A DNA stretch of 64,000 nt from Bdellovibrionales bacterium (GCA_965203275.1 OZ241865.1:352001-416000), one strand, 5' to 3'; positions 5,115-60,970 are shown, counted from the first letter of the stretch. Notes: generated from the sequence alone by a model not told the origin. Translations and numbers: made by a program.

Positions 5115-5935
5115 CCGACGGTTCAGTGCCGTCGGGCTAACTACCTAGAAAATCCATTTATTTAATTCACTAAAAGTAAACCAGCCTCTGGCTGTTTTTG
5201 GGCATTGGCTCACTAAAAGTGGTCTAGCCTCTGGCTACTTTCTGGTTGCCAGCCGAAGGCTATTCGCCTTCTCAAAAGCTGGCAACCTAGAAAGCTTGAC
5301 CACTTTTAGTAGGAAGGAAACCTTCATTTCTTAACACCATGTTAAGGAAAAAGTTCTTTCTTACACCTTTTGGCTACCGCCGTCGATCAAAGGCTGATTG
5401 CCTCAAAAATCCGTTTACTTTTAGTAATGAGGATCCCTTCGTCTCTTTACACGATGTTAAGGAAAAAGTTCCTTCTGTTTCACTAAAAGTGGTCTAGCCT
5501 CTGTTTCCCTAAAATTGAACTAGCCTCGGCTACTTTTGGGCAGTTAGCCCGACGGCTACTGCCGTCGATCAAAGGCTAACTGCCTAGAAAATCCATTTAT
5601 TTTGAGTAGGGGAGGATCCTTTTTTCTCTTAACAGCATGTTAAGGAAAAAGTTCTTTTTGAACCCGCCAAGGGCTCAGGAGGAAATTTTTTAGATGCAAA
5701 AATTCATTACAATCAATGCTCTGATGCCGGTTTGCTGGATCCCGGATCCTGGATCCCGGATCCCGGTTCCCGGATCCCAGATCCCGGATGAAAATCATGT
5801 TAGGGAAACAAGATGTTTATCGCAATGGCTTTCGCCATTGGCAAAATGGTCATTGCCTCAAAAATCTATACATTTTGAGTAGGGGAGGATCTCCTTGCTT
5901 TTTAACACCATGTTAGGGAAACAAGATATTCGTTT
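5115..5935. repeat. Cluster 1 of the structured intergenic element family, plus GGATCCC heptamers
   Basis: Complete unit at ~5211-5310, several partial units, TGTTAAGGAAA junction motifs. Confidence 0.85.
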
Positions 5936-6002
5936 TTATGGATTTCTTTGAAAAGGTAAGGAATTTAGGTTTGAAAATTAGAAATCAAGTGATTTCAGCT
6001 AT

Positions 6003-6040
6003 TTAATACTGTGACTTTTGTATAAAAGTTACAGTATTAA
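6003..6040. promoter_or_regulatory. Long palindrome, candidate regulator site upstream of the pilin; second copy at 6355-6380
   Basis: TTAATACTGTGACTTTT-GTAT-AAAAGTTACAGTATTAA; core recurs as TGTGACTTTTATACAAAAGTTACAGT. Confidence 0.5.
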
Positions 6041-6414
6041 GTGTTTGTAATTGTTAGACTTTTTTAGGTCGACTTTAGAAATTTCTAATTTTTCGTCTAA
6101 CACAATTCTTATCGTTTATTATGACATAAAACTTTATATTTTTGTTAAAAAAAATCAAAAAAAGTGACATTTTGTATCAAAAAGAATCACTTTTTTTAAT
6201 TTTTGTATCATCTTGAAACACTTTACTAATCTTTAAGACATAAGATCAGAAAAATGAGCAATGGTTTTTCATTTTTGTTTTATAACTTTTGATTTGTTTG
6301 ATTTTTCAAAACAATTTTCTTGCAAAAAATTGCCTGTTTTTTGCTCTTTCAAATTGTGACTTTTATACAAAAGTTACAGTGCTAAGTCATTGAAATCACT
6401 AGGTCGTTTAGGAT

Positions 6415-6931
6415 GGGTTCATTAAAAGTGGCCAGAAGCTGGTTTACTTTTAGTGAAAAGGAAATCAATAGAAGGAAATCTTTTTCCTTAACATTGTGTA
6501 GAGGAGTAAAAGGATCCTTCTCTACTCAAAATAAACAGACTTTTGAGACATTGCTCTTTTTGGACAGCGATAGCTGTCAGAGCAAACGTCAGAAGGAGAT
6601 CTTTTTCCTTAACATCGTGTCAAAAGAGGAAAGGATCCTTCCTACTAAAAGTGGTCAGGCTTTTGAGGCAATGACCATTTTGTCAAAGGCGAAAGCCTTT
6701 GCGGTCATTGCCCAAGGTGTAAGAAGGAACTTTTTCCTTAACATCTTGTTAAAAAACGAGGAGATCCTCTCTACTAAAAGTAAACGGACTTTTGAGATAG
6801 CCAGCCTTTGATCGACGGTGAGAGCCGTCGGGCTGGCTATCCAAAAGTGACCAGAGGTCAGTTTACTTTTAGTGAAACAGAGGCTAGACCACTTTTAGTG
6901 AAACAGAGGCATGATTTATTTTGAGTGAAAC
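6415..6931. repeat. Cluster 2 of the structured element family, ending directly before the pilin RBS
   Basis: Complete unit at ~6773-6875, truncated units and three stacked end modules. Confidence 0.85.
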
Positions 6932-6948
6932 AAACCGTGGAGGTTATT

Positions 6949-7641
6949 ATGGAACGTTTAATTAAGAATCAAAAAGGTTTTAGTTTAATTGAATTAATGG
7001 TCGTCGTGGCTATTATTGGATTATTGGCCGCTATTGCTATACCACAGTATAGTCGGTTTCAAAAAAGGGCAATTCAAACAGAGGCAAAAAGTGGTTTAAG
7101 TGGTTTATTTGTAGCACAAAAGGCATTTATAACAGAATGGAATTATGCAACATCCGATATGGACCAGCTAGGTTATGATATTGATGGAAATCAAAATAAT
7201 TATACTATTGGCTTTGCAGGAGCAACTACCAGCACAAGAGATGCAGAGTCGAATCCAGCTAATTATAGAGGACCAAAAGCAGAATCTAATAACGCAAATC
7301 AAAATTTCAATGTGGGTAAAACTATGCCTGCAACAGTAACAGCTAATAATGACGCAGCTTTTAGCGGTACGGCAGGACATGCATGTGCTGATAATGCAGG
7401 CGGTACAGCTTGTGATGCTGCTTCTGTCGCTGCAAACTGTGTTTGGCGAGGTGGCTCTTGTCAAGCACCACTTCAAAATGGTCTATATATAAGTGGAACA
7501 AGCGGGATAAATTATTTAGCTGGAGCTGTGGGATACCTGGGAACAAAAGACACAGGTATAGTTGATGATGATCTTGATGTTTGGACTATTAACCATGAGC
7601 GTACGTTAGTGGTTAGTCAGGACGGAACAGATAAAGATTAA
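6949..7641 (+). CDS. pilA: Type IVa pilin
   Basis: Class III signal QKG/FSLIELMVVVAIIGLLAAIAIPQY; GGAGG RBS before ATG 6949. Confidence 0.9.
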   Translation: MERLIKNQKGFSLIELMVVVAIIGLLAAIAIPQYSRFQKRAIQTEAKSGLSGLFVAQKAFITEWNYATSDMDQLGYDIDGNQNNYTIGFAGATTSTRDAESNPANYRGPKAESNNANQNFNVGKTMPATVTANNDAAFSGTAGHACADNAGGTACDAASVAANCVWRGGSCQAPLQNGLYISGTSGINYLAGAVGYLGTKDTGIVDDDLDVWTINHERTLVVSQDGTDKD

Positions 7642-7681
7642 TCACATAATCCTTTAATTTTAAGGTTTAAGCATGATGAGT

Positions 7682-7717
7682 ATATGGGTCGTTTGCTACG
7701 GCCCATATATTTTTTTT
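7682..7717 (+). terminator. Rho-independent terminator after the pilin gene
   Basis: ATATGGGTCGT-TTGCT-ACGGCCCATAT hairpin followed by a T run. Confidence 0.75.
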
Positions 7718-7788
7718 AACAATAAGGGTTTAACGGCCCTTTTATTTTAGTTTTATTAATTTTTAACCAAACCATAAGGGGGTAAATT

Positions 7789-8022
7789 ATGCCAGTACAA
7801 GTTTTATATTTTTTAACAGGTTTTGCACTTAGCGAACTTAGACATATTCATTATCATGGAGGCCTAAACGAATGCAAAAGGGCAGGCGGTGACTTTAATA
7901 AAGTTAGACCATTACACAAAAACCAGGATGTAATGGATTCTATAAAAGACATGTTCAGACAGACAGCGTTTCTTTACAAGTCATTTGAAGGATTTTTCTC
8001 TAAGAAATCTTTTAAGAAGTAA
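7789..8022 (+). CDS. Small hypothetical protein
   Basis: 77-aa ORF with AAGGGGG RBS, flanked by two similar AAGGG..CCCTT hairpins (~7724 and ~8041). Confidence 0.5.
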   Translation: MPVQVLYFLTGFALSELRHIHYHGGLNECKRAGGDFNKVRPLHKNQDVMDSIKDMFRQTAFLYKSFEGFFSKKSFKK

Positions 8023-8119
8023 AGTGGAAAACATGTTTTTAAGGGCTTAACCGCCCTTTTGTTTTTTTATCATTTTGATACAAATCACTGATATTTCTTA
8101 AAAAATTCTCAAATAATAG

Positions 8120-8146
8120 TTAAGTCCCTTGAAAAGATGCCGATAC
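8120..8146 (+). promoter_or_regulatory. Putative sigma28 (FliA) promoter
   Basis: TTAA-N15-GCCGATAC. Confidence 0.55.
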
Positions 8147-8181
8147 AGTACTTAAGGCTATTAAGTAGCTTAGAGAAGTAT

Positions 8182-9306
8182 ATGTATCTTAGAATAACCA
8201 TTATCTTATTGTGTTTGTCTTTATTTGGATGCGGTGGGAGCAAGTCATCCACTTCCATAACACCAACACCATCACCAGACAAGTCAGGACCCGGAGTAAA
8301 TCAAAGCCCGAGTCCAGTAGCAAGTCCAAGCCCGACATTGCCAAATTGCAATTCAAAGTTTATTGGCTTGCCTATTCTTAATATAAGAAAACCATTAATC
8401 AATGAAGCCACTGTTGATGATGGAGAGGCTTTAAGACGAGCTAGTGAAGATGGACATGTAGAAAATGTAAAGGCATTGCTAGAAAAGGGTACAGATATAA
8501 ATAGTCAAGACAGCAAATATGGCAAGACGGCCTTAATGTTGGCTAGTCAGTCTAATCATATAGAGATTGTAGGGTTATTGCTAGCGACTGATGCCAATGT
8601 GAACATTCAAGACAACTATGGCACGACGGCTTTAATGTATGCTAGCAATGGTCGTAAACACCATCACCAACACCAGACTGAGATTGTAAAGCTATTGCTA
8701 GCGACCGATGCCAATGTGAACATTCAAGACAACTATGGCATGACGGCTTTAATGTTGGCTAGTCGTGAGGGCTATGGCTATATAGAGATTGTAAAGCTAT
8801 TGCTAGCGACTTGTGCTGATGTCAATCATCAAGACAAATATGGCACGACGGCTTTAATGTATGCTAGCAATGGTCGTACTGAGATTGTAAAGCTATTGCT
8901 AGAGGCCGGAGCGAACGTCAATCATCAAACAAAAAAAGGATGGACGGCTTTAATGCATGCTAGTCGTACTGAGATTGTAAAGCTATTGCTAGCGGCCGGA
9001 GCTGATACCGACTTTCAAGACAGAAGAGGCCGAACAGCTTTAATATGGGCAAGCTTATATGGCCATGTTGAGCTTGTAAGGCTATTGCTAGCGGCCGGAG
9101 CTAACGTCAATATTCGAAATAATGAAGGGAATACGGCTTTAATAGCCGGTTTAAGAAGAGATATTGAGATTGTAAGGTTATTGTTAGAGGCCGGTGCTGA
9201 CGTTAACCTTCAAAACAAAGCAGGGAAAACGGCTTTATATTATGCAAGACAGGATGGTCGTACTGAAGTTGTAAGGTTATTGCTAGCGGCCGGAGCTACA
9301 GAATAA
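8182..9306 (+). CDS. Ankyrin-repeat lipoprotein
   Basis: LFGC lipobox, Pro/Ser linker, about 8 G.TALM.AS..G..EIVKLLL..GA.VN repeats; start moved from 8137 to the Met of the signal peptide. Confidence 0.92.
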   Translation: MYLRITIILLCLSLFGCGGSKSSTSITPTPSPDKSGPGVNQSPSPVASPSPTLPNCNSKFIGLPILNIRKPLINEATVDDGEALRRASEDGHVENVKALLEKGTDINSQDSKYGKTALMLASQSNHIEIVGLLLATDANVNIQDNYGTTALMYASNGRKHHHQHQTEIVKLLLATDANVNIQDNYGMTALMLASREGYGYIEIVKLLLATCADVNHQDKYGTTALMYASNGRTEIVKLLLEAGANVNHQTKKGWTALMHASRTEIVKLLLAAGADTDFQDRRGRTALIWASLYGHVELVRLLLAAGANVNIRNNEGNTALIAGLRRDIEIVRLLLEAGADVNLQNKAGKTALYYARQDGRTEVVRLLLAAGATE

Positions 9307-9370
9307 TACCAATTCTATATTTGTCTCAAAGTGAGAATCTTTTTTTTTATCTTTTTTTCACATAAATCAT

Positions 9371-9397
9371 TAAGTCAGACTAAAGTCATACCGATAT
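9371..9397 (+). promoter_or_regulatory. Putative sigma28 promoter
   Basis: TAAG-N15-ACCGATAT. Confidence 0.45.
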
Positions 9398-9398
9398 T

Positions 9399-10169
9399 AT
9401 GCTTATGGCAGGTTTTATTATTATTTCTCTAGCAATATTTTTTTGTTTTTTGATCTTTGGCAATCGGTCAGATCCCAGGAAACAATTATTGTATGCTTGT
9501 GATAACGGACATACAGATGTTGTAGGGATATTGATAGAAAGTAAAGCTGATATTGACATTAAAGGAGAAGCTGGCCAGAGGGGTTTAATGATGGCAAGCT
9601 ATAACGGATATACAGATATTGTATTGTTATTGCTAGAGGCTGGAGTCGATGTCAATATTCAAAGCCAAGATGGCTGGACGGCTTTATTATTTGCTAGTAC
9701 AAACGGCCACGAGGAAATTGTAAGGCTTTTATTATTATCAAATGCAAATGCTGATATTCAAACTTATAAAGAAGGCTTTACGGCTTTACTAGTAGCAAGT
9801 GCTAAAGGTCATATAAAGATTGTAAGGCTTTTATTAGCAGATGGTGCAAATCCAGATATTCAAGACAATGACAATGGAACAGCTTTATTGGGAGCTTGTA
9901 TATTTGGTCATATAGGGATTATAAGGCTTTTATTGGACTTTGGAGCAAACATCGACGTCCAGGGGAAAAAAGGTATGACAGCTTTAATGTTGGCTAGTTA
10001 TTTAGGACGTACAGAGATAGTAAGGATGTTGCTAGAAGACAATGCAGACGTAGAAATAAAAACCAGAGATGGGTGGTCGGCTATAAGCATAGCTCTTTCA
10101 AAGAATTACAAAGACATATATGATATGTTGTTTATGGCTATGGTTAGAAAATATAAATTAATAAGTTAG
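9399..10169 (+). CDS. Ankyrin-repeat protein with N-terminal membrane anchor
   Basis: Hydrophobic N-terminus followed by about 6-7 ankyrin repeats. Confidence 0.92.
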   Translation: MLMAGFIIISLAIFFCFLIFGNRSDPRKQLLYACDNGHTDVVGILIESKADIDIKGEAGQRGLMMASYNGYTDIVLLLLEAGVDVNIQSQDGWTALLFASTNGHEEIVRLLLLSNANADIQTYKEGFTALLVASAKGHIKIVRLLLADGANPDIQDNDNGTALLGACIFGHIGIIRLLLDFGANIDVQGKKGMTALMLASYLGRTEIVRMLLEDNADVEIKTRDGWSAISIALSKNYKDIYDMLFMAMVRKYKLIS

Positions 10170-10342
10170 CTATTATATATTGAGATTTGTCTCACATATC
10201 AATCTTTATTCTTATATTGATTGCCATGCCTTCTTTGAAGTCTCAAACATCGAAACTTTACAAACCATTCTATTAAACCCACTGGATGATACTTGATTGT
10301 TTTTTTCTATAAAACCATGTATCTTTTGACTTTTTTAAAGCT

Positions 10343-10531
10343 GTGTTGCACTTTGAAGTAAACCAGAGTGGGAGACACAGCTTGAATATCAAACAATATG
10401 TAGCTTATTATAGAGTATCAACATCAAGGCAAACTATTGGCTTGCAAGCTCAGGAGACAATGGTCAAAGCCTATCTTAAAGATCAATGCCCCCCTATCAA
10501 ATCATTCACAGAAAAGGAAAGTGGCAAGTAA
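10343..10531 (+). pseudogene. Truncated serine recombinase (resolvase/invertase) N-terminal fragment
   Basis: YVAYYRVST.RQ..GL.AQ...F.EKESGK then a stop; the rest of the catalytic domain is missing. Confidence 0.75.
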
Positions 10532-10707
10532 TACAGGGACTCAATCAAGAGTAGCCGACTTTAATCATTATGATAAATTCTGACAACAATAAAAATATCG
10601 ACACGAAGGGTCAAAGGAGTTGACTTCGATGATGATCTTTTACGTTCTGTGTGGTAGGTAAATAAATATTTAAATATTCCAAAGAAATATCCTTTATAGG
10701 AGGTAAA

Positions 10708-11130
10708 ATGGAAAAGAAATTAATAACAGTTTTGATTTTCACAGTGACTTTGCTGAATCAAAGTCTTACATGGGCTACCTGGGGCTATCTGGATAGATAT
10801 CCAAATCATGGTTTTGAGCCTAAAGCCATTACAGATGTTAGCATTAAGGCAAACTGGACGTGTTGCGAAAGAACGCAGTTAATGTATCATAGCTCCGAAG
10901 GCAATACCAGTAAGGTAAAGGAATTGCTAGAGACCGGTGCCGATCCAAATGTTCAAGATGATAATGGCTGGACACCTTTAAATTATGCTACTTATAACGG
11001 ACATATTGAAATTGTAAAGCTACTGCTAGATGCTGAAGTAGACATCAGGCCTCAAGACATAAGGTTATCTAGAGAGGGCGGGCATGAGGATATTGAAAAT
11101 CTCTTATTAGATGCCATTGATACAGAATAA
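10708..11130 (+). CDS. Short secreted ankyrin-repeat protein
   Basis: AGGAGG RBS, signal peptide, GADPNVQDDNGWTPLNYATYNGHIEIVKLLL. Confidence 0.88.
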   Translation: MEKKLITVLIFTVTLLNQSLTWATWGYLDRYPNHGFEPKAITDVSIKANWTCCERTQLMYHSSEGNTSKVKELLETGADPNVQDDNGWTPLNYATYNGHIEIVKLLLDAEVDIRPQDIRLSREGGHEDIENLLLDAIDTE

Positions 11131-11644
11131 GACCAAAGATTGGTAGGACTCCCACTTATAGTTTTTATTAAAATAGGTATTAAGGCTTGACATTAAAACA
11201 AAATAGGTTATAGATAATTGCCAAACAGGGGAGGAAGCAGAAGGATAGTTAATTGATTTTAAAGATTCTTAAATGTTTTCATAATGGATTTTATCACAGG
11301 CATACATTAAAGCGGTCTTACCTTTATTTTCAGTCATAGTTCATCTCCTCTCTGTTTGTTAAAAAAATCATTTTAAACTTTGAAAGTGAGTTTATTTGAG
11401 TTTCATAATTTTTTTATGTTTTTTATTGTCTCTTTTAGAGACACTTAAATAAAAACGTCTATCTTTTCTCTAAAGTTTATGCTACGAAATCCCGACTAAA
11501 TAGACGTGCATGCTCTAAAGGCTAAATCACTATCGAAACCAATTTATATTCATGAATAAAAAATAAACATAAATAATAAAAAAACATGGATAATAAAAGA
11601 GAGAGGAAAACACTTTATGAATTGATCCATCAGTAGATATTAAT

Positions 11645-11995
11645 TTGATCTTGGATTTTTTTGTAAAACATCCTATATTTTCCCTTATTATATTATTTAT
11701 TGCAGGGATGATATGGTTCTGTTTTTGGACTTTATATCGACAGCTATCTAACCATTTATCTACACAAATCAAAGAGATTAAGGAAGATATTAAAGAAGTG
11801 AAACAAGAGGTTAAAGAAAAGATTAACGAGGTTAAGGAAGATATAAGAAGGTTCAAGATGATAATGTAAAAATAAAAGAAGATAATGTAAAAATAATAGA
11901 AACCATAAATATATTGGGTAAAAACGTTGAGAAGTTAATGACAATCCAAGAAAAGACAGTATCTTTGCTTAAAAAAAATAATATACTATAATTAA
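11645..11995 (+). pseudogene. Probably frameshifted membrane-anchored coiled-coil protein
   Basis: TM segment then IKE/VKE heptads to 11869; similar coiled-coil sequence (VQDDNVKIKEDNVKII..) continues in another frame to ~11995. Confidence 0.4.
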
Positions 11996-12109
11996 TTTCT
12001 ACTGTTGTAGATGCTTCGCCTACTACTTCTTTGGTTTTTGCTATTCTGTATATAGAATTTCTACTTCCGCAGACTCCGCTTGCTCCTTAAAAACATTTTA
12101 GAAGTATAT

Positions 12110-13440
12110 CTTGTTTCTTTAACATGGTATTTATCCGGGATCCCGGGATCTGGGATCCGGCAGTCAGGCAAGGATAAAACGAACGCTTTCTTTCCTTAAC
12201 ATTTCACTCAAAATGAGCCACACCGCTGGTGTGTTTTTTGGTGTTGCCTGCAAAGGCTTTCGCCTTTGACAAAATAGGCAACACCTAAAAAATCCGCTCA
12301 TTTTGAGTAGAGAAGGATCCTTTTATTCTTTTACACCATGTTAAGGAAATTTTTCTTTTATTGTCTTTACAATGAAGGAACTTTTTCCTTAATATTTCAC
12401 TCAAAATGAGCCACACCGCTGGTGTGTTTTTTGGTGTTGCCTGCAAAGGCTTTCGCCTTTGACAAAATAGGCAACACCTAAAAAATCCGCTCATTTTGAG
12501 TAGAGGAGGATCCTTTTATTTTTTTACACCATGTTAAGGAAATTTTTCTTTTATTGTCTTTACAATGAAGGAACTTTTTCCTTAACATTTCACTCAAAAT
12601 GAGCCACACCGCTGGTGTGTTTTTTGGTGTTGCCTGCAAAGGCTTTCGCCTTTGACAAAATAGGCAACACCTAAAAAATCTGCTCATTTTGAGTAGAGAA
12701 GGATCCTTTTATTCTTTTACACCATGTTAAGGAAATTTTTCTTTTATTGTCTTTACAATGAAGGAACTTTTTCCTTAACATGGAGTTAAGGGACGAAGGG
12801 ATCCTCCCTACTAAAAGTAAACGGACTTTTGAGGTAGCCAGCCTTTGATCGACGGCGGTAGCCGTCGGGCTGGCTACCCAAAAGTGACCAGAGGTCAGTT
12901 TACTTTTAGTGCAAAATAGAAGGTCCAAAAAGTAAGAATGATATATACAAAGAAATTGAAGTAAAAACAAATTTTAGTAGTGAGCGTCTAGCCGATCGCC
13001 TCAAAATTGACCTTTCGTTTCTCTGAAAAGGGCTTGACCTGGTGGATATATGAAATTAGAAATAGAATATTCAAGGAAAGGAAATTTTTCCTTAACATTT
13101 CACTCAAAATGAGCCACACCGCTGGTGTGTTTTTTGGTGTTGCCTGCAAAGGCTTTCGCCTTTGACAAAATAGGCAACACCTAAAAAATCCGCTCATTTT
13201 GAGTAGAGGAGGATCCTTTTATTCTTTTACACCATGTTAAGGAAATTTTTCTTTTATTGTCTTAAGAGCAAGCTCAATGCAATGAAGGAACTTTTTCCTT
13301 AACATGGAGTAAAAAAATGAGGAGATCCTCCCTACTAAAAGTAAACGGACTTTTGAGGTAGCCAGCCTTTGATCGACGGCGGTAGCCGTCGGGCTGGCTA
13401 CCCAAAAGTGACCAGAGGTCAGTTTACTTTTAGTGCAAAA
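12110..13440. repeat. Cluster 3 of the structured element family, including three tandem 193-bp units and a ~350-bp duplication
   Basis: Near-identical units with 193-bp period at ~12190-12780; ~12575-12928 is repeated at ~13085-13456. Confidence 0.9.
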
Positions 13441-13456
13441 TAGATAGAAGGTCCAA

Positions 13457-14041
13457 ATGTCGTTTGTAAATTATAATGCAAAAGAAATTCATTGTAAGAT
13501 TGTCTACTATGGTCCGTCTTTAGGGGGCAAGACCACCAATGTGCAGTGGATTTTCCAAAAGACCACACAAGATCCTAAATCTAAATTAATGAGTTTAAAT
13601 ATAGAAAATGAAAGAACAGTTTTTTTTGATTTCTTACCTTTATCACTTGGTGATATTCGGGGTTTTAAAACACGCTTTCATCTTTATTCTGTTCCTGGGC
13701 AAATGGTGTATGATGCTAGTCGAAAGCTTATTTTAAAGGGGCTGGATGGTGTTATCTTTGTAGCTGATAGTCAAATAGAGAGGATGGAAGAAAACTTACA
13801 ATCTCTTGAAAATCTTAAAACCAATTTAGAACAACAAGGTTATAATATTCATCAAATTCCCTTAATTTTTCAATACAATAAAAGAGATTTACCTAATATT
13901 ATGCTTGTCAATGAGTTGCGATCGCAACTGAATAAATACAATGCTCCTGATTTTGAAGCCAGTGCAGTGCAAGGGGTTGGAGTTTTTGAATCTCTTAAAC
14001 CTCTTTCTAAAAAAATCATTAATATTTTAAAGGGTGGGTAG
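13457..14041 (+). CDS. mglA: Small GTPase MglA
   Basis: KIVYYGPSLGGKTTN, RTVFFDFLP, VPGQ, LKGLDGVIFVADSQ, YNKRD. Confidence 0.95.
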   Translation: MSFVNYNAKEIHCKIVYYGPSLGGKTTNVQWIFQKTTQDPKSKLMSLNIENERTVFFDFLPLSLGDIRGFKTRFHLYSVPGQMVYDASRKLILKGLDGVIFVADSQIERMEENLQSLENLKTNLEQQGYNIHQIPLIFQYNKRDLPNIMLVNELRSQLNKYNAPDFEASAVQGVGVFESLKPLSKKIINILKGG

Positions 14042-14057
14042 TTTTGTCTCACTTGAT

Positions 14058-15728: not shown

Positions 15729-15733
15729 AATAT

Positions 15734-16021
15734 TTAGCTTAGATTGTTTAGTTTTTTCTGTATTTCTCGTATTTTGTTCTCTGTGGACTCTGTGATTTTT
15801 GCAATGGTTGAAATATCCATGTTATTTTTAAGCATTTTTAAGATAATATCTTGCCTACCTTCTTGCCTACCTTCTTGCCTACCTTCTTGCCTACCTTCTT
15901 GCCTACCTTTCTCTCGGCCAATCTGAATGCCTTTCTCTTGGCCAATCTGAATGCCTTCTTCTCGGCCAATCTGAATGCCTTTTTTCATAGTTCCTTCTAT
16001 GGTAAAATCAAATGCTTCCAT
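15734..16021 (-). CDS. Putative in-frame internal small protein (RpnS-like antitoxin, 95 aa)
   Basis: AGGAGGAG-AAAATATT-ATG strong RBS inside the rpn gene, in frame, just before the EGxQ repeat region. Confidence 0.6.
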   Translation of the reverse strand: MEAFDFTIEGTMKKGIQIGREEGIQIGQEKGIQIGREKGRQEGRQEGRQEGRQEGRQDIILKMLKNNMDISTIAKITESTENKIREIQKKLNNLS

Positions 16022-16846: not shown

Positions 16847-16897
16847 TTTGCATAGAATAAACATATCTTGATGGAATGTCAAATACGTTTGTTTCAT

Positions 16898-17710
16898 TGT
16901 TTCACTAAAAGTGGGCTGTTTCACTAAAAGTGGTCTAGCCTCTGGCTACTTTTGGGCAATGACCGCAAAGGCTTTCGCCTTTGACAAAATGGTCATTGCC
17001 TCATTTGATTTGCACTAAAAGTAAACTAGCCTCTGGCTACTTTTGGACATTGCTCTGACAGCTATCGCTGTCCAAAAAGAGCAATGTCTCAAAAGTCCGT
17101 TTACTTTTAGTAGGGAAAGATCCTCTTGTCTCTTAACATGATGTTAAGGAAAAAGTTCCTTCATTGTAACCCGCTTGCTCTTAAGACAATAAAAGAAAAA
17201 TTTCCTTAACATGGTGTAAAGGAATAAAAAGATCCTTTTCTACTCAAAATAAATGGATTTTCTAGGTAGTTAGCCTTTGATCGACGGCGACAGCCGTCGG
17301 GCTAACTGCCAGAAAACATGCCAGAGGCATGATTTATTTTGAGTGAAATGTTAAGGAAAAAGTCGTCCTCTTTCTACCGCCCACACACGGGCGAGGTTGG
17401 CTCACTAAAAGTGGTCTAGCCTCTGGCTACTTTTGGGCAATGACCGCAAAGGCTTTCGCCTTTGACAAAATGGTCATTGCCTCAAAAGCCTGACCACTTT
17501 TAGTAATGAGGATCCTCTCGTCTCTTAACCACATGTTAAGGAAAAATTTCCTTAACATGGTGTCAGAAGCAAGGAGATCCGCTCTACTCAAAATGAGCAG
17601 ATTTTTGAGGCATTGCTCTTTTGGGACAGCGTGAGCTGTCAGAGCAATGCCCAAAAACACACCAGAGGTGTGGCTCATTTTGAGTGAAATGTTAAGGAAA
17701 AAGTCGTCCT
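16898..17710. repeat. Cluster 4 of the structured element family, between rpn and the CRISPR array
   Basis: Four complete units in both orientations (~17013, 17242, 17403, 17585) plus stubs. Confidence 0.88.
17370..17393 (-). CRISPR. Orphan truncated CRISPR repeat (24 of 28 nt)
   Basis: CTTTCTACCGCCCACACACGGGCG, identical to the array repeat but lacking TAAC. Confidence 0.85.
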
Positions 17711-18461
17711 CTTTCTACCGCCCACACACGGGCGTAACATAATGAGGCTCTAACTAAAACCCTTAAAGTTCTTTCTACCGCCCACACACGGGCGTAACAC
17801 GTTCCTAGTGAGACAATTAATGACGTTAAACTTTCTACCGCCCACACACGGGCGTAACAATTACCTCTCAGTGTAATATCCTCGTCCATTCTTTCTACCG
17901 CCCACACACGGGCGTAACAATTACCTCTCAGTGTAATATCCTCGTCCATTCTTTCTACCGCCCACACACGGGCGTAACAATTACCTCTCAGTGTAATATC
18001 CTCGTCCATTCTTTCTACCGCCCACACACGGGCGTAACTTAAAGACGATGAGTTTAGGATTCAAGTGCTTGCTTTCTACCGCCCACACACGGGCGTAACT
18101 TAAAGACGATGAGTTTAGGATTCAAGTGCTTGCTTTCTACCGCCCACACACGGGCGTAACTTAAAGACGATGAGTTTAGGATTCAAGTGCTTGCTTTCTA
18201 CCGCCCACACACGGGCGTAACGAGGTACTCTAGTCATTGCTTCTTCTTTTACACTTTCTACCGCCCACACACGGGCGTAACTCACACTCACTGCCAAAGT
18301 TGGCACACTTCTTCTTTCTACCGCCCACACACGGGCGTAACAAATTCTAAGAGAGTTTTGGAAAAAAGAAAAACTTTCTACCGCCCACACACGGGCGTAA
18401 CAAAAATCACATTGTAAGTGAAGATAGCCGGTTCTTTCTACCGCCCACACACGGGCGTAAC
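17711..18461 (-). CRISPR. CRISPR array: 13 identical 28-bp repeats, 12 spacers (32-33 bp, 8 unique)
   Basis: Repeat on the - strand GTTACGCCCGTGTGTGGGCGGTAGAAAG with a CGCCC/GGGCG stem; repeats start at 17711, 17771, 17831, 17891, 17951, 18011, 18072, 18133, 18194, 18254, 18314, 18374, 18434. Confidence 0.99.
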
Positions 18462-18503
18462 ACTTCTATAAAAACATTTAACAATAACAAATAGTTAAAC
18501 ATT
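18462..18503 (-). promoter_or_regulatory. Short AT-rich CRISPR leader with an IHF-like site
   Basis: 42 bp between cas2 and the first repeat; TAACAAATAGTTA (18485-18497) has one mismatch to WATCAANNNNTTR. Confidence 0.55.
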
Positions 18504-19657: not shown

Positions 19658-19674
19658 TTTTTAATTAACATATT

Positions 19675-29669: not shown

Positions 29670-30800
29670 CTTAAAATGCATAGATTTTTGAGACAATGAC
29701 CATTTTAGTGACCATTTTATTGACAGCGTGAGCCGTTAACGTTTTTCCGGGATCCGGGATCTGGCATCCGGCAACCGGCAACCCGGGATCCGGGATCTGG
29801 GATCTGGGATCCGGCAACCGGCAACCCGGGATCCGGCAGTCAGGCATCAGGCAACAGATCCCGGAACCCGGAATGCCTGCTTGCCTGATCCCGGATCCCG
29901 GGACCCGGGATCTGGGATCTGGGAACCGGCAACCCGGCATCAAAATGACTTTTTCCTTAACATGTAGTTAAGAGATGAGGAGATCCTCCTTACTAAAAAT
30001 AAACGGATTTTTGAGGCAATCAGCCTTTGATCGACGATCCTTTTATTCCTCTACACCATGTTAGGGAAACAAGATATTCGAGAGCCGTCGGGCTGATTGC
30101 CCAAAAACAGCCAGAGGCTGGTTTATTTTTAGTGAAACAACTCCTTAACATTGTGTTTATCCGGAATCTAGGATCCGGGATCTGGCAACCGGCAACCCGG
30201 CATCAGAAAGAACTCTTTTTCCTTAACATGGTGTCAAAAAACGAAGAGATTCTTCCTACTAAAAATAAACGGATTTTTGAGGTTGCCAGCATTTAAGAAG
30301 GCGAATAGCCTTCGGCTGGCAACCCAAAAGTGACCAGAGGTCAGTTTACTTTTAGTGAAACAAACTCCTTAACATCGTGTTTTTCCGGGATACGGGATCA
30401 GGAAACCGGCAACCCGGCATCAGAAAGAACTCTTTTTCCTTAACATGGTGTCAAAAAACGAAGAGATTCTTCCTACTAAAAATAAACGGATTTTTGAGGC
30501 AATCAGCCTTTGATCGACGACGAAAGTCGTCGGGCTGATTGCCCAAAAACAGCCAGAGGCTGGTTTATTTTTAGTGAAACAACTCCTTAACATCGTGTTT
30601 TTCCGGGATACGGGATCAGGAAACCGGCAACCCGGCATCAGAAGGAAATCTTTTTCCTTAACATGGTGTCAAAAAACGAAGAGATCCTCCTCTACTCAAA
30701 ATAAATGAATTTTCTAGGCAGTTAGCCTTTGATCGACGACGACAGTCGTCGGGCTAACTGCCAGAAAACATGCCAGAGGCATGATTTATTTTGAGTGAAA
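29670..30800. repeat. Cluster 5 of the structured element family with long GGATCC(C/G) heptamer tracts
   Basis: Heptamer tract at 29747-29938; units at ~29992 (interrupted), 30258, 30475, 30693. Confidence 0.9.
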
Positions 30801-30929
30801 ATAATACAAACTATAAGAAAAATTTATGCATAGAGGATTTTTTATTTTACATACTTCATTTATTATATTATGACTTTTTTAAAATTAAAAACAGCAATTC
30901 AAACATAACAAAAACAGGAGGATTAAAAT

Positions 30930-39078: not shown

Positions 39079-39087
39079 CTCTTTTTC

Positions 39088-39720
39088 TCTCACTAAAAAT
39101 AAACCAGCCTCTGGCTGTTTTTGGGCATTGCTCTGACAGCTTACGCTGTCTAAAAAGAGCAATGTCGTTGCTTCACTAAAAGTGGTCTGACCTCTGGTCA
39201 CTTTCTGGCGATGACCACGATGGCTTTCGCCATCGGTAAAATGGTCATCGCCTAGAAAGCTTGACCACTTTTAGTAGGAAGGATATCTTCGTTCCTTAAC
39301 TCCATGTTAAGGAAAACGTTCTTTCTTACACCTGCTTGCCGGGTTGCCGGATCCCAGATCCCGGATAAACACGATGTTAAGGAAACAGAGTTTCATTTTT
39401 TTATTTTTTTTTTATTCTCTTTTAGATTCTGCGTAACTCTCAAAAAAAAGTAATTAAGAGGAGGATGGGGCAACGGGAGGCTGAAGATCTTCCGCAAATT
39501 GAGCTTGCTCCTTAAAAGCAAGCTCAATTGAGGACTTCGGAAGGCTCCCGTTGCCCCATCCTCAAGTAAAAACAAAATGGAAAAGCAGAATCGAAGGGCG
39601 GTGGGTGGGGTTAGGGAGAATCCTCTTGTCTCTTGACTACATGTTAGGGAAACAAAACGCCTTTCCTGCCTGATGCCGGGTTGCCGGATCTCAGATCCCG
39701 GATAAACACGCAAGATGTTC
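39088..39720. repeat. Cluster 6 of the structured element family plus a second module type
   Basis: Complete unit at ~39174-39275; 39395-39520 is homologous to the reverse complement of ~60505-60620. Confidence 0.8.
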
Positions 39721-41024: not shown

Positions 41025-41475
41025 TTTGGCTCACTAAAAGTAAACTAGCCGCTGGCTACTTTTGGGTAGCCAGCCCGACGACTCTCGTCGTCGATCAAAG
41101 GCTGGCTACCTCAAAAGTCCGTTTACTTTTAGTAGAAAGGATCCTTTCGTCTCTTAACACCATGTTAAGGAGTTTGTTTCACTAAAAGTAAACCAACCTC
41201 TGGTTGCTTTTGGACATTGCTCTGACAGCTATCGCTGTCTAAAAAGAGCAATGTCTCAAAAGTCCGTTTACTTTTAGTAGAAAGGATACTTTCCTCTTTT
41301 AACTACATGTTAAGGAAACAATTCCTTCTTACACCTGCTTACCGGATCCCAGATCCCGGATAAACATCATGTTAAGGAAACAAGGTGTTCGTTTCATCTT
41401 CCTTTTCCTTTTATTGCCGGACTGCCTGTCTACCGGATCCCGGATGAACACTATGTTAAGGAAAAAGTTCCTTCA
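41025..41475. repeat. Cluster 7 of the structured element family
   Basis: Two adjacent complete units with different inner stems (~41032 and ~41180). Confidence 0.88.
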
Positions 41476-41784: not shown

Positions 41785-42150
41785 CTCACTAAAAATAAAC
41801 CAGCCGTTTGCTTCACTAAAAGTAAACCAACCTCTGGTTGCTTTTTGGCGATGACCACGACGACTTTCGTCGTCGATAAAATGGTCATCACCTCAAAAGT
41901 CCGTTTACTTTTAGTAGAAAGGATCCTCTCCTCTTTTAACACCATGTTAAGGAAAAAGAACTTCATTCGTAAACCCGCTTGCTCTTGAGGTAATAAAAGA
42001 AATTTTCCTTAACATAGTGTAAAGGAATAAAAGGATCCTCCCTACTCAAAATAAATAGATTTTCTAGGCAGTTAGCCTTTGATCGACGGCGGTAGCCGTC
42101 GGGCTAACTGCCATAAAACATGCCAGAGGCATGATTTATTTTGAGTGAAA
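41785..42150. repeat. Cluster 8 of the structured element family
   Basis: Two complete units in opposite orientation (~41814 and ~42043). Confidence 0.88.
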
Positions 42151-42162
42151 TGTTATTGCTGA

Positions 42163-58534: not shown

Positions 58535-58541
58535 TTGATAT

Positions 58542-59732
58542 ATGATGCAAGTTTATATTGAATTTAAAATGTATTTTTTACTATTATTTGCTGTTGTTTT
58601 ATTGCAAAGTTCTTTAGCTTTCAGTAAAGTAAATACACTGGATTTTACACCTTCTCAAACAGCTTCTACTTCACCTACTCTGGTGCGTCCACTGGATCAA
58701 ATGGATCATTCGGATCATTCGGATCATTTGGATCAGCAAAGTGTGGAAAGTACATCTGTTGATGAAGATAAAAATCAGCAAAGTGCGGAAAGTATACCTG
58801 TTGATGAGGATAAAAATCAGCAGAGTGTGGAAAGTATACCTGTTGATGAAAATAAAAATCAGCAAAGTGTGGAAACTATATCTGTTGATGAAAATAAAAA
58901 TCAGCAAAGTGCGGAAAGTATATCTGTTGATGAAAATAAAAATCAGCAAAGTGTGAAAAGTACATCTGTTGATGAAGATAAAAATCAGCAAAGTGCGGAA
59001 AGTACATCTGTTGATGAAAATAAAAGTCAGCAAAGTGCAGAAAGTATATCTGTTGATGAAAATAAAAGTCAGCAGAGTGTGGAAAGTATACCTGTTGATG
59101 AGGATAAAAAAGATCTTGATAAGGCAGAGGATGATTTTTCTGATATACTCAATGCTGTTGAAGCAAAATATACTCAAATGCAAACCCTGCAATCAAAGGT
59201 GACAAAAACAAATATTCTTAAGCTTTTGCAAAGGCAAAACGTTCATAAAGGGGAACTTCAAATCAAAAAAGGGGGCTTGATGCGTTTGGAGTTTAAAACG
59301 CCAGTTAGGTCTATTTTATTGATTAATACAAAAGGAAGTTGGCATATACAGTATCCTGATACTCCTGCATTTGATGATACTATTCGAGTGATCAGTTCTA
59401 AAACAAGGTCTATTTTAGAGCAGGCTTTATTATCTATTTTAGAGTTGGGTGATATTCTAAAATACTTTAACCTTTTAGAAGCTCAAAAAACAAAAGCTTC
59501 ACAAGAAGATTCATCGTATGTTTTTAAATTAAAACCTCATAAAGATGTAGCATCTCTTCATCAATTAGAAGTAGAGATCAATGATCAATTTTTGATCACA
59601 AGGGTTACTTATCAGGATGCATTAGAAAACAAAACATCACTTCATTTTTCTGAAATTTCAATAAATAAAAAGATCAAAGATGCTGTTTTTATTTTTAAAA
59701 AGCCAAAGGATGCTGAGGTGATTGCAAGATAA
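58542..59732 (+). CDS. lolA: LolA-family lipoprotein carrier with N-terminal acidic tandem repeats
   Basis: Signal peptide; G.L.IKK.G.MR.E...P...; D.LEN.T.L.FS....N..I....F.FK.PKDAEVI C-terminus. Confidence 0.8.
   Translation: MMQVYIEFKMYFLLLFAVVLLQSSLAFSKVNTLDFTPSQTASTSPTLVRPLDQMDHSDHSDHLDQQSVESTSVDEDKNQQSAESIPVDEDKNQQSVESIPVDENKNQQSVETISVDENKNQQSAESISVDENKNQQSVKSTSVDEDKNQQSAESTSVDENKSQQSAESISVDENKSQQSVESIPVDEDKKDLDKAEDDFSDILNAVEAKYTQMQTLQSKVTKTNILKLLQRQNVHKGELQIKKGGLMRLEFKTPVRSILLINTKGSWHIQYPDTPAFDDTIRVISSKTRSILEQALLSILELGDILKYFNLLEAQKTKASQEDSSYVFKLKPHKDVASLHQLEVEINDQFLITRVTYQDALENKTSLHFSEISINKKIKDAVFIFKKPKDAEVIAR
58734..59111 (+). repeat. Nine tandem 42-bp coding repeats (QQSVESISVDENKN)
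   Basis: Directly visible in DNA and protein. Confidence 0.93.
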
Positions 59733-59747
59733 AGACAGTTAATGTCA

Positions 59748-60970
59748 TTAACATCATGTTTATCTGGGATCTGGGATCTGGGATCCGGGATCCGGGATCT
59801 GGGATCCGGGATCGGGATCCGGGATGGGATCCGGGATCCGGGATCCGGGATCTGGGATCCGGGATCTGGGATCCGGCAACCCGCCATCAGGCAGGAAAGG
59901 CGTTTTGTTTCCCTAACATTTCACTCAAAATGCATCATGCCGTCTGTTTCACTTGAAATGAGCCACACCGCTGGTGTGTTTTTTGGTGTTGCCTGCAAAG
60001 GCTTTCGCCTTTGACAAAATAGGCAACACCTAAAAAATCCGCTCATTTCAAGTAGGGCGGATCTCCTTGCTTCTTTACACCATGTTAGGGAAAAAGTGTT
60101 TTTATTGTCTTGGAAGCAAGCGGGCTACAATAAAGGAACTTTTTCCCTAACATCATGTTAAGAGACGAGGAGATCCTCCCCTACTCAAAATGAGCAGTTT
60201 TTTGCGGCATTGCTCTTTTTGGACAGCGATAGCTGTCAGAGCAATCGTCAGAAGGAAATCTTTTTCCTTAACATCGTGTCAAAAGAGGAAAGGATCCTTC
60301 CTACTAAAAGTGGTCAGGCTTTTGAGGCAATGACCATTTTGTCAAAGGCGAAAGCCTTTGCGGTCATTGCCCAAAAGTAGCCAGAGGCTAGACCACTTTT
60401 AGTGAAACAGAGGTGTGGCTCATTTTGAGTGAAACAACTATTTTGAGTAGAGGAGGATCCTTTTATTCCTCTACACCATGTTAGGGAAAAAGTGCTTTTA
60501 TTACTTTAGGAGCAAGCGGGTCTGCGGAAGATCTCCAGCCTGCCCCCGCCTCCCACTCATAATATTCTTCATTTTTTTGAGAGTTACGCAGAATCTAAAA
60601 AAATAAAAAAAACAAAAAAAACGAACATCTTGTTTCCCTAACATCGTATTGATTTTTTCTGGGATCCGGGATCTGGGATCCGGGATCCGGCAACCCGGCA
60701 TCAGATCCCAGAATTGACTTTTTCCTTAACATGGTATAAAGAAATGAAAGGATATTTTTCCGGGATCCGTGATCTGGCACCCTGGCATCAAACAGACAGG
60801 CAAGGATGAAGCGAATATCTTGTTTCCCTAACATTGTGTTAAAAGCAAGGAGATCCTTCCTACTAAAAGTAAACGGACTTTTGAGGTAGCCAGCCTTTGA
60901 TCGACGGCGAAAGCCGTCGGGCTGGCTACCCAAAAGTGACCAGAGGTCAGTTTACTTTTAGGGAAACAAA
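59748..60970. repeat. Cluster 9 of the structured element family with heptamer tracts
   Basis: GGGATC(C/T) heptamers at 59763-59880 and 60659-60690; complete units at ~59951, 60303, 60862. Confidence 0.9.

What the first reader, a model, noticed from the sequence alone, without database searches (positions are those of the whole stretch)
5211..60962. Dispersed ~100-nt element whose structure is conserved while its stem sequences are replaced
Seen in sequence: about two dozen complete copies in nine intergenic clusters share one fold. Read in the orientation of 12810-12910, it is P1(13 bp)-3-nt linker-P3(6 bp)-bulged A-P4(10-11 bp)-T-rich 5-7-nt bulge-P5 hairpin-P4'-P3'-P2 hairpin(loop AGA/AGC)-P1'. 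Stems covary. P1 pairs include ACTAAAAGTAAAC/GTTTACTTTTAGT, ACTAAAAGTGGTC/GACCACTTTTAGT, ACTCAAAATGAGC/GCTCATTTTGAGT, ACTTGAAATGAGC/GCTCATTTCAAGT and ACTCAAAATAAAT/ATTTATTTTGAGT. P2 arms include TAGCC, CAGCC, CAACC, TGACC, CACACC and CATGCC, each with its own complement. P3 is CTTTTG/CAAAAG or CTTTCT/AGAAAG. P4 arms include GGTAGCCAGCC, GGCAATCAGCC, GGCAGTTAGCC, GGCAATGACC, GACATTGCTCT, GGTGTTGCCT and GGTTGCCAGC. Stem variants are shuffled between copies. Inference: shape, not sequence, is being maintained, as for integron attC sites or HUH/RAYT substrates, or this is a new structured ncRNA family. I do not recognise it as a described element, and no cognate enzyme is evident in the window.
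Basis: partly seen in the sequence, partly recalled or inferred. Interest (0 to 1): 0.9.

Follow-up and report, generated by a model that had tools for sequence, protein, structure and literature searches.

The report
Abundant fold-conserving three-armed DNA repeat
The window holds 25 full and about a dozen broken copies of a roughly 165-base non-coding DNA unit that folds into the same three-armed hairpin although its stem letters differ; it behaves like a selfish repeat that has filled 6.5% of a small uncultured bacterial genome, and the enzyme that copies it is unknown.

Summary
The window has 24 copies with complementary 13-nt ends, one full-length copy with mismatched ends, and 13 fragments. 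The real unit is longer: a 5' module with two small palindromes, the three-way junction, then a short A-rich tail. Genome-wide there are 1,469 pieces, or 6.5% of 2.57 Mb. Nearly all are intergenic, with no strand bias. Stems come as discrete alleles in 162 combinations. Of stem cells, 99.0% are Watson-Crick, and G.T outnumbers A.C on one strand. Copies replace short target stretches, leave no target duplication, and often land inside older copies. Rfam has no match. The genome has no Y1 or Y2 HUH, reverse transcriptase or IS110 gene. Outside this genome I found the family only in two relatives. The 5' module is interlocked with heptamer-armed cassettes carrying an Avd-like PF05635 gene. Best reading: a REPIN-like selfish structured DNA repeat with an unknown mover. 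This scan had already reported the same family from other windows of this genome.

The parts
12757..12916 (+). Reference full unit: 5' module B, three-way junction A (12810-12910), tail
5206..5362 (-). Full unit (A 5212-5310)
5502..5659 (-). Full-length unit whose two P1 arms come from different alleles and are not complementary
6721..6879 (+). Full unit (A 6773-6873), innermost of a three-deep nest
6475..6715 (+). Two 3'-truncated outer copies (6475-6594, 6594-6715) of the nest; each is cut in P4'/P3' where the next unit begins
6879..6926 (+). Two stacked 21-22-nt 3' ends (second half of the P2 hairpin plus P1') of the two outer copies. Each starts at AGAGG of the P2 loop; their P1' arms match the P1 arms of the truncated copies upstream, one exactly and one with 1 mismatch
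12201..12358 (-). Full unit (A 12206-12308), first of three in a 193-nt tandem
12393..12550 (-). Full unit (A 12399-12501)
12587..12744 (-). Full unit (A 12592-12694), head-to-head with the unit at 12757
13097..13254 (-). Full unit (A 13102-13204)
13281..13440 (+). Full unit (A 13334-13434)
16917..17003 (-). 5'-truncated copy that starts at P4
17010..17165 (-). Full unit (A 17014-17111)
17192..17349 (+). Full unit (A 17242-17344)
17398..17554 (-). Full unit (A 17404-17504)
17538..17690 (+). Full unit (A 17586-17685), abutting the far end of the CRISPR array
29943..30139 (+). Full unit (A 29992-30133) with a 41-nt piece of an inverted module B inside the P5 hairpin
30210..30362 (+). Full unit (A 30258-30356; one A.C mismatch in P1)
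30427..30581 (+). Full unit (A 30475-30575)
30645..30801 (+). Full unit (A 30694-30796)
39087..39166 (-). 5'-truncated copy that starts at P4, directly behind the tail of the next unit
39169..39327 (-). Full unit (A 39175-39275)
41027..41171 (-). Full unit with shortened module B (A 41033-41133), in tandem with the next unit
41174..41330 (-). Full unit (A 41181-41278)
41809..41964 (-). Full unit (A 41815-41915)
41996..42151 (+). Full unit (A 42044-42146)
59944..60104 (-). Full unit (A 59951-60053)
60129..60253 (+). 3'-truncated copy
60257..60409 (+). Full unit (A 60303-60403)
60813..60969 (+). Full unit (A 60862-60962; last base of P1' mismatched)
5163..5474 (-). Further fragments in this cluster: a 3' end piece (5163-5205) and a 3'-truncated copy (5372-5474). 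This range also contains the full unit 5206-5362 listed above
5819..5930 (-). 3'-truncated copy
5661..5801 (-). Heptamer (GGGATCY) array plus leader of a PF05635-type cassette. The gene itself is missing; a unit sits where the ribosome-binding site and start codon would be
29746..29942 (+). Heptamer array of the same cassette type, next to the unit cluster
59740..59893 (+). Heptamer array of the same cassette type, next to the unit cluster

Best explanation
These copies belong to one genome-wide family of selfish, non-coding, structured DNA repeats. The unit is about 165 nt. New copies are made by copy-and-paste of the whole unit, so both arms of every stem travel together. That would explain why pairing and a few unpaired letters stay constant while stem letters drift through G.T intermediates and whole hairpins are exchanged between copies by recombination. 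The constant unpaired letters are the bulged A, the AGA loop of P2, the GNNA loop of P5 and the ACT/AGT ends. Insertion replaces a short stretch of the target and often occurs inside an older copy, with the right-hand junction at a few discrete positions; I infer these are unpaired spots. Shown here: the fold, the covariation, the abundance, the recent spread, the insertion anatomy and the absence of known transposase families. Inferred: that DNA rather than RNA is the folded form, that fold recognition drives copying, and that some protein does it. The mover is unknown.
For: Abundance: 1,469 HMM hits covering 166,115 nt, 6.5% of the genome. 817 are full-length, or 753 after removing both-strand double calls.
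Location: only 16 of 588 copies lie inside long ORFs.
Fold and covariation. Copies from two other genomes keep the fold; 34 matches (26 distinct) are 97.3% paired and 31 of 40 pairs change on both sides. That alignment was fitted to the model.
DNA-like pairing: 24,027 of 24,272 stem cells are Watson-Crick, with 139 G.T, 37 A.C and 69 other. Among distinct mismatched stem variants, G.T outnumbers A.C 46 to 25 (binomial p 0.017), and G.T variants reach higher copy numbers.
Allele structure: 162 stem-allele combinations among 588 copies, Cramer V 0.46-0.60. 82 of 664 parsed full units have P1 arms from two alleles, so recombination occurs yet most copies stay matched.
Recent spread: in one 22-copy subfamily 20 copies are identical over 101 nt, and identical 156-nt units sit at four dispersed loci.
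Insertion anatomy: in 16 filled-versus-empty paralog comparisons, most show the unit replacing a target stretch of about 3-50 nt. No target duplication signal appears in 117 isolated units against shuffled pairs. The ends of 3'-truncated copies spread over HMM positions 85-134, whereas the starts of 5'-truncated copies cluster at about five places, including the P2 loop.
Not an assembly artefact: contig word depth in element bins is about 40-120 times that of neighbouring unique bins in 4 runs from 4 studies.
Same kind of behaviour in print: REPINs show hairpins in ssDNA or mRNA, common compensatory changes, and insertion into or next to existing copies (PMC3116915, abstract and passages).
Against: No copying enzyme was found. 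Y1 HUH gave 0 hits in this genome and in G029. Y2 HUH gave 0 hits in 5 genomes, but no control genome rang either. RVT_1 gave 0 hits in this genome and G029. IS110 gave 0. There are only 2 tyrosine recombinase hits.
No empty-versus-filled site between strains could be shown, because short-read contigs break at the repeats. Mobility therefore rests on within-genome paralogs.
Both strands fold about equally well, and the G.T/A.C asymmetry is modest and partly inherited by copying.
There is no leading/lagging strand bias (298 against 290), unlike IS200/IS605-type ssDNA transposons as I recall them. The origin call from the weak GC skew is uncertain.
The covariation tests do not correct for relatedness of copies.
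Confidence: 0.6

Rival explanations
1. Satellite of the PF05635 cassette. The units are non-autonomous partners of the heptamer-armed cassettes that carry a small Avd-like four-helix-bundle gene (the 23S rRNA intervening-sequence protein family). That protein, alone or with a host enzyme, binds the folded units and mediates their copying.
For: PF05635 hits: 14 in this genome, 19 in G038 and 22 in G029, the three genomes with the element. There are 0 in G019 and G007, the two family members without it.
In this genome, most of the 14 cassettes I read have module B and junction A directly downstream in the same orientation.
Module B contains one copy of the cassette's heptamer GGGATCC. 161 of 230 heptamer arrays have a CCTTAACAT motif within 45 nt, against a background of about 2% per side.
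The protein is 101 aa, matches TIGR02436, and hits PDB 2GSC at E 1e-3.
PF05635 resembles Avd, the nucleic-acid-handling partner of DGR reverse transcriptases (PMC10053308, passage). An old proposal is that the IVS ORF encodes a mobility component (cited in PMC4990558, passage).
Against: PF05635 occurs in 58 of 151 genomes of the order, almost all without this element. Co-occurrence in five related genomes is therefore weak evidence.
In G029, 0 of 5 cassette loci have the junction within 2 kb. In G038, 3 of 5 do, on the opposite strand in 2.
Units also insert into and destroy the PF05635 gene and its ribosome-binding site.
A four-helix bundle has no known catalytic activity (my recollection).
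Confidence: 0.15
2. No dedicated enzyme. The hairpins stall replication or are cut by host structure-specific nucleases. The breaks are repaired by short-homology copying from other copies, which both spreads the units and shuffles their hairpins.
For: No known transposase family was found.
Insertions replace target DNA without a regular duplication.
Left junctions are variable.
The same inner unit with the same junction sits in outer copies of at least three different alleles.
82 full units have arms from two alleles.
The genome has 16 YhgA/Rpn-like PD-(D/E)XK genes. As I recall, the E. coli members of this family promote RecA-independent recombination.
Against: This does not explain why specific unpaired letters and one exact three-way shape are kept, nor why units reach unique, non-repeat sites.
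Rpn-like genes do not track the element: G019 has 16 and no element, G029 has 1.
Confidence: 0.13
3. Retroposon-like element. The unit is transcribed, the stable fold protects the RNA's 3' end, an A-rich tail is added, and the RNA is reverse-transcribed into nicked target DNA.
For: The 3' end is constant and followed by variable A-rich tails. Targets suffer deletions rather than duplications, and left junctions are variable. G.T is tolerated on one strand.
Against: There is no RVT_1 hit in this genome or in G029.
The three reverse transcriptases of G038 are a group II intron type, a 590-aa RT next to a Schlafen/AlbA_2 ATPase-like gene, and a short RT. Only the second has an element nearby, and that element lies beside a tRNA gene.
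G-U pairs are far rarer than in structured RNAs, as I recall them.
Upstream homology lengths are bimodal rather than a continuum of 5' truncations.
Confidence: 0.07
4. A family of structured non-coding RNAs or cis-regulatory RNA elements with a cellular function.
For: Covariation is strong. Element copies are 80-84% identical between two species whose sigma-54 activator genes are 71% identical.
Against: Rfam gives nothing at gathering score, and only sub-threshold miRNA-precursor models on the B-B palindromes.
Orientation is neutral with respect to genes.
There are roughly 750 full copies plus hundreds of fragments.
Copies nest in each other and disrupt genes.
Pairs are almost exclusively Watson-Crick.
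Confidence: 0.05

Closest known systems
REP / REPIN elements mobilised by RAYT (Y1 HUH) transposases (PMC3116915; abstract and passages read)
   Same: Abundant intergenic repeats. They are predicted to form hairpins in ssDNA or mRNA, show compensatory changes across the hairpin, insert into or next to older copies, form clusters, and often occur as inverted doublets. Here 150 neighbouring full-unit pairs are divergent.
   Different: This genome has no RAYT or other Y1 HUH gene. The unit is a three-way junction of about 100 nt plus a second module, not two 20-40-nt palindromes. Stems come as discrete, exchangeable alleles.
Heptamer-armed cassettes carrying a PF05635 (23S rRNA intervening-sequence / Avd-like) gene; ORF-bearing IVS of 23S rRNA (PMC4990558 and PMC10053308, passages read)
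   Same: The cassettes are present in all three element-bearing genomes. They are physically interlocked with module B, which holds one heptamer unit. They are hairpin-forming and of unknown mobility mechanism.
   Different: The three-way junction carries no gene and no heptamer arms. PF05635 cassettes occur in 58 of 151 genomes of the order without it. In G029 the two are not adjacent.
Integron attC sites (recalled, not read here)
   Same: Recognition by folded single-strand shape with extrahelical bases rather than by sequence.
   Different: There are no cassette arrays and no integron integrase; the genome has only 2 tyrosine recombinase hits. The element is branched, and copies are dispersed and nested.
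IS200/IS605-derived palindrome-associated elements and other HUH ssDNA transposons (PMC6006769, search listing and start of abstract only)
   Same: Hairpin substrates. One element end abuts a short, semi-conserved motif (GAAAC in 219 of 588 copies).
   Different: No TnpA. No strand bias relative to replication. Insertions delete target DNA.
Classical bacterial MITEs such as Correia/NEMIS, ERIC, RUP and BOX (PMC3184786 and PMC2229807, search listings only; element names recalled)
   Same: 100-170-nt non-coding units with terminal inverted repeats, often folded, and modular in the case of BOX.
   Different: No target-site duplication. No parent insertion sequence shares the ends: the only multi-copy DDE element, an IS256 type, has different inverted repeats and 8-bp duplications.
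IS91 / ISCR / Helitron rolling-circle elements (recalled)
   Same: One well-defined end next to a short motif and a less defined other end.
   Different: No Y2 HUH hit in any of 5 genomes, though the search had no positive control. The units are far smaller and gene-less.

Membership tests
REP/REPIN-RAYT | A RAYT (Y1 HUH, PF01797) gene in the same genome, flanked by its repeats | tested here: not met
   0 PF01797 hits in this genome and in G029. G038 has 1 and G007 has 3, which does not track the element. The control rang in 6 of 14 genomes.
REP/REPIN-RAYT | Short imperfect palindromes organised as inverted doublets that form one hairpin | tested here: inconclusive
   Divergent doublets are common: 150 of 444 neighbouring full-unit pairs. 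But each single unit already folds on its own into a three-way junction.
IS200/IS605-type ssDNA elements | TnpA Y1 transposase; insertion biased to the lagging-strand template | tested here: not met
   No Y1 HUH. Orientation is 298 against 290 relative to the GC-skew replichores; the skew is weak, so the origin call is uncertain.
Classical MITE | Target-site duplication of fixed length and a parent IS with the same terminal inverted repeats | tested here: not met
   The longest shared flank words in 117 isolated units match the shuffled control. The IS256-type copies have unrelated ends and 8-bp duplications.
Integron attC | Integron integrase (tyrosine recombinase) and arrays of gene cassettes each ending in the site | tested here: not met
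   2 PF00589 hits in this genome and 0 in G029. Copies lie between ordinary genes, in 425 clusters.
Any Rfam family | Match at the family's gathering score | tested here: not met
   0 matches on the 64-kb window. At E<=1 on 12100-13500 there are only miRNA-precursor models at less than half their gathering score.
Retroelement (SINE-like, group II, retron, DGR) | A reverse transcriptase in the genome | tested here: not met
   0 RVT_1 hits in this genome and G029. The G038 reverse transcriptases are unrelated to the element.
IS91/rolling-circle | Y2 HUH transposase (PF04986) | tested here: inconclusive
   0 of 5 genomes have a hit, but none of the 14 control genomes rang, so the search is unvalidated.
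IS110 / bridge-RNA elements | DEDD transposase (PF01548) | tested here: not met
   Only G007, which lacks the element, has a hit.
PF05635 heptamer-armed cassette (IVS type) | A PF05635 gene between complementary arrays of a short repeat | tested here: inconclusive
   The cassettes exist (14 copies) and share the heptamer and module B with the units. The three-way junction itself has neither gene nor arrays.

The most novel reading that the evidence does not exclude
The three-armed units and the PF05635 cassettes are the non-autonomous and autonomous halves of one previously undescribed mobile system. It would lack every known transposase, recognise its DNA (or RNA) by fold, and use the Avd-like four-helix-bundle protein as its specificity factor. 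If so, it would also explain how ORF-bearing intervening sequences reach ribosomal RNA genes and other loci.
Probability: 0.12. Interest if true: 0.9.

Novelty: new variant of a known kind. Interest (0 to 1): 0.62.

Why it matters
Structured intergenic repeats are usually explained by a known partner enzyme, such as RAYT or an insertion-sequence transposase. Here a family occupies 6.5% of a small genome and shows signs of recent spread, yet no hit was found to any of the transposase or reverse-transcriptase families searched. Either an unrecognised enzyme or host repair machinery moves it. Its hundreds of copies with discrete, recombining stem alleles form a natural mutational scan of what the mover reads. 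Its interlocking with the PF05635 cassettes offers a testable handle on a protein family whose role outside diversity-generating retroelements has stayed open since the 1990s. Practically, these repeats break short-read assemblies and can masquerade as structured RNA genes in covariation screens.

Tried and rejected
RNA evidence: 16 runs were listed, 14 of them holding at least part of the stretch, and no RNA holder was listed.

Empty-versus-filled sites between samples: contigs of 4 runs were laid on 4800-18700, but they break at every repeat, so no bridging contig was informative.

A continuum of 5' truncations, as expected for a retroposon: upstream homology to a gene-bearing copy is bimodal (40-55 nt and 80-100 nt), not continuous.

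Target-site duplications: none above the shuffled control. One ~11-nt duplication flanks a composite inserted in an Rpn-like gene and its three later duplicates.

IS256-type element as parent: rejected.

YhgA/Rpn-like genes as a specific partner: they do not track the element.

Reverse transcriptases of G038: unrelated.

TnpB-type domain: single hits inside 1,343- and 1,365-aa ORFs only.

Wider distribution: a motif scan of viral contigs gave 14 loci with 0 true matches. The weak hits in G045 and G132 are generic hairpins that score the same on both strands.

Whether the element-bearing small contigs of G029 are contamination: they are 65-78% identical to this genome, so they are not from it, but their origin stays open.

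CRISPR spacers against the element: none of 8 distinct spacers matches elsewhere in the genome.

A gene-content comparison of G029 against G019 was not run, because the fetch cap does not cover both genomes.

Literature: five full-text searches returned no description of this element. Supplements were not opened.

Full report
**What is in the window**

A 13-bp outer stem runs from ACT to AGT. A 3-nt linker leads into a long arm (P3, a bulged A, P4, a T-rich bulge, then the P5 hairpin). A short P2 hairpin with loop AGA or AGC closes the structure. A script looking for such outer arms returned 29 hits, of which 24 are the element. All 24 fold as drawn on both strands.

On the 23-copy alignment, 27 of 41 pairs change on both sides and almost none on one side only. 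97.5% of cells pair, against 80.8% after column shuffling and 33-47% after sliding partners. Folded as DNA, four strands gave z-scores of -10.5 to -12.6.

**The unit is larger than described**

It contains CCTTAACAT, a partial inverted copy of it, and a GGATCC palindrome. Every copy is followed by GA and an A-rich tail, most often GAAAC (219 of 588 copies). A profile of the whole ~168-nt unit finds 38 pieces in the window: 25 full-length and 13 truncated, together 4,979 nt.

The stretch 6413-6930 is a three-deep nest. Two outer copies are cut in P4'/P3' where the next unit begins. Their missing 3' ends follow the innermost copy as two stacked pieces that each start at AGAGG of the P2 loop. The arms of those pieces match the truncated copies upstream.

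**Genome-wide picture**

The window lies in a single-contig 2.57-Mb genome. My arm scan found 605 hits, of which 588 could be oriented: 307 on the plus strand and 281 on the minus strand. The unit profile finds 1,469 pieces covering 166,115 nt, or 6.5% of the genome. By class they are 817 full-length (753 after removing calls made on both strands of one copy), 311 3'-truncated, 268 5'-truncated and 73 internal. They form 425 clusters.

Only 16 of 588 copies lie in long ORFs. Orientation is neutral relative to flanking genes (162 against 155) and to the GC-skew replichores (298 against 290).

Contig word depth in element-bearing bins is about 40-120 times that of neighbouring unique bins in four runs from four studies. 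This rules out an assembly artefact.

**How the stems vary**

Each stem has a small set of discrete alleles: 8 major for P1, 7 for P2, 5 for P3, about 12 for P4 and about 8 for P5. They occur in 162 combinations among 588 copies and are only partly linked (Cramer V 0.46-0.60).

Counting each distinct mismatched stem variant once, G.T outnumbers A.C 46 to 25 (p 0.017). The G.T variants are also the ones with many copies. Single-step intermediates between alleles exist; for example, both the G.T and the A.C form link the two P1 alleles that differ at one pair.

The P5 loops are GNNA (GAAA in 204 copies). The P2 loop is AGA in 575 of 588 copies, and the bulge is A in 560 of 588. That GCGAAAGC-type loops are unusually stable in DNA is my recollection, not a result here.

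Of 753 full units, 527 have perfectly complementary P1 arms, 55 have one mismatch, 82 have arms from two different alleles and 89 could not be parsed. Recombination between copies therefore happens, yet matched copies dominate. If arms were joined at random only about 16% would match; I computed this from the allele counts.

I read this as follows. Arms are inherited together because the whole unit is copied. One strand has to fold for a copy to be copied again. Hairpins, being contiguous segments, are swapped by recombination.

**Signs of recent spread, and how copies land**

One 22-copy subfamily has 20 identical junctions, and identical 156-nt units sit at four dispersed loci.

I compared filled sites with paralogous empty ones in 16 cases. 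In most, the unit replaces about 3-50 nt of the target. One case has an ~11-nt flanking duplication, and several right junctions fall in A-rich or GA-rich target sequence.

117 isolated units show no target duplication beyond a shuffled control.

Truncated outer copies end anywhere between profile positions 85 and 134 and never beyond 135. The resumed 3' parts start at about five discrete places, including the P2 loop, the bulged A and the GGATCC centre. Some of these junction types are themselves amplified composites, so the counts are not independent events.

The same inner unit with the same left junction sits in outer copies of at least three different alleles. This fits either repeated site-specific insertion or short-homology transfer between copies. 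I cannot tell which.

**The search for a mover**

Pfam on 44 window ORFs shows housekeeping genes, ankyrin proteins and a CRISPR-Cas locus. The only transposase-like genes are an IS256-type transposase and a YhgA/Rpn-like gene.

All-against-all clustering of genome ORFs finds only those two multi-copy transposase-like families. The IS256-type copies have their own inverted repeats and 8-bp duplications, and one sits inside an element. Rpn-like genes number 16, 19, 1, 16 and 0 in G000, G038, G029, G019 and G007, which does not track the element.

Family searches over the same five genomes gave:
- Y1 HUH: none in G000 or G029.
- RVT_1: none in G000 or G029.
- Y2 HUH: none anywhere, but without a positive control.
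- IS110: none except in G007.
- Tyrosine recombinases: two in G000 and none in G029.
- TnpB-type domain: one hit, inside a 1,365-aa ORF.

**Distribution**

A covariance model built from the window copies was run on 151 genomes of the order. It hit G000, G038 (same genus) and G029 (same family). It did not hit G019 or G007, and two weak hits elsewhere proved to be generic hairpins. Motif scans of viral and genome collections added nothing outside G038.

Copies from G038 and G029 keep the fold with different letters: 97.3% paired, and 31 of 40 pairs change on both sides, on a model-fitted alignment. Element copies are 80-84% identical between G000 and G038, while a sigma-54 activator gene is 71% identical.

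In G029 the matches listed lie on small contigs whose origin I could not settle.

**The PF05635 connection**

A lead from earlier notes of this scan was tested. PF05635 genes number 14, 19 and 22 in the three element-bearing genomes and 0 in the two without it. However, the family is in 58 of 151 genomes of the order, so this is weak evidence.

In G000 every copy of the gene sits in a ~700-nt repeat. Its order is: a head of module B, a GGGATCY heptamer array, a leader whose 11-nt inverted repeat covers the ribosome-binding site, the 101-aa gene, a second array, and then usually a complete module B and junction in the same orientation. Module B's GGATCC is one heptamer unit. 161 of 230 heptamer arrays have a CCTTAACAT motif within 45 nt.

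Units also insert into the gene and its leader. In G029 the cassettes stand alone. In G038, three of five loci have junctions nearby.

The protein matches TIGR02436 and PDB 2GSC. PF05635 is said to resemble Avd of diversity-generating retroelements (PMC10053308, passage). The idea that the IVS ORF serves mobility is old (PMC4990558, passage).

The window holds heptamer arrays and one gene-less leader, but no intact PF05635 gene.

**Comparison and verdict**

The element behaves like REPINs, which are hairpin-forming, compensating, self-clustering selfish intergenic DNA (PMC3116915). It fails the defining test of that family and of every other family I could test. Rfam has nothing.

I rate it a new variant of a known kind. 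It stands out for its branched fold, its discrete recombining stem alleles, its abundance, the lack of any known mover, and its interlocking with the PF05635 cassettes.

Earlier agents of this scan reached similar conclusions on other windows of the same genome. My counts (1,469 pieces, 6.5%) agree with theirs.

Noticed in passing
window 17711-18461 and 18785-24815: A CRISPR array of 13 repeats (28 nt) and 12 spacers. Only 8 spacers are distinct because two are each present three times. Next to it lie cas genes: Cas1, a Cas3 with HD and helicase domains, a Cas6e/Cse3-like protein and two unassigned ORFs. No spacer matches elsewhere in the genome.
   Followed up: partly
window 17370-17393: A solitary, slightly truncated copy of the CRISPR repeat lies between two elements. 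It is preceded by the same 25 nt that precede the first repeat of the array at 17711, so an element-plus-repeat block has been duplicated.
   Followed up: no
window 25356-26591 (-): An IS256-type (Mutator family) transposase, one of 7 copies of equal length (411 aa) in the genome, with 8-bp target duplications. Another copy (genome 432252-433487) is inserted inside one of the three-armed elements.
   Followed up: yes
window 15734-16924 (-): A YhgA/Rpn-like PD-(D/E)XK 'putative transposase' gene, one of 16 PF04754 hits in the genome. An element fragment abuts its start codon. Elsewhere a composite unit has split a paralog.
   Followed up: partly
window 42163-48831 (-): A 2,222-aa ORF built of about 27 tandem 153-nt (51-aa) repeats with no Pfam assignment. 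It is one of six large paralogs in the genome.
   Followed up: no
window 8137-11130 and 28294-29574: Several ankyrin-repeat proteins, which suggest a host-associated lifestyle. Runs holding this DNA include sponge and marine metagenomes.
   Followed up: no
window 58690-59194: A 42-nt tandem repeat (about 12 units) inside the LolA-domain ORF at 58542-59732.
   Followed up: no
window 12960-13090; genome 577065 and 756656: Other repeated non-coding modules accompany the elements. One is a ~100-nt block ending in ...ATTCAAGGAA that recurs at several loci. Another is an A-rich block ending in GAATCTAAAA... that often precedes module B. The genome is only about 74% coding by a long-ORF proxy.
   Followed up: no
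G029 and G019 (whole genomes): No PF00589 tyrosine recombinase hit in either 1.6-Mb genome. They may therefore lack XerC/D-type recombinases.
   Followed up: no
window 12692-12811 and 13203-13336: Head-to-head pairs of module B form ~120-nt perfect-looking hairpins. At permissive thresholds these draw sub-threshold hits to plant microRNA-precursor models in Rfam, which is a trap for automated annotation.
   Followed up: yes
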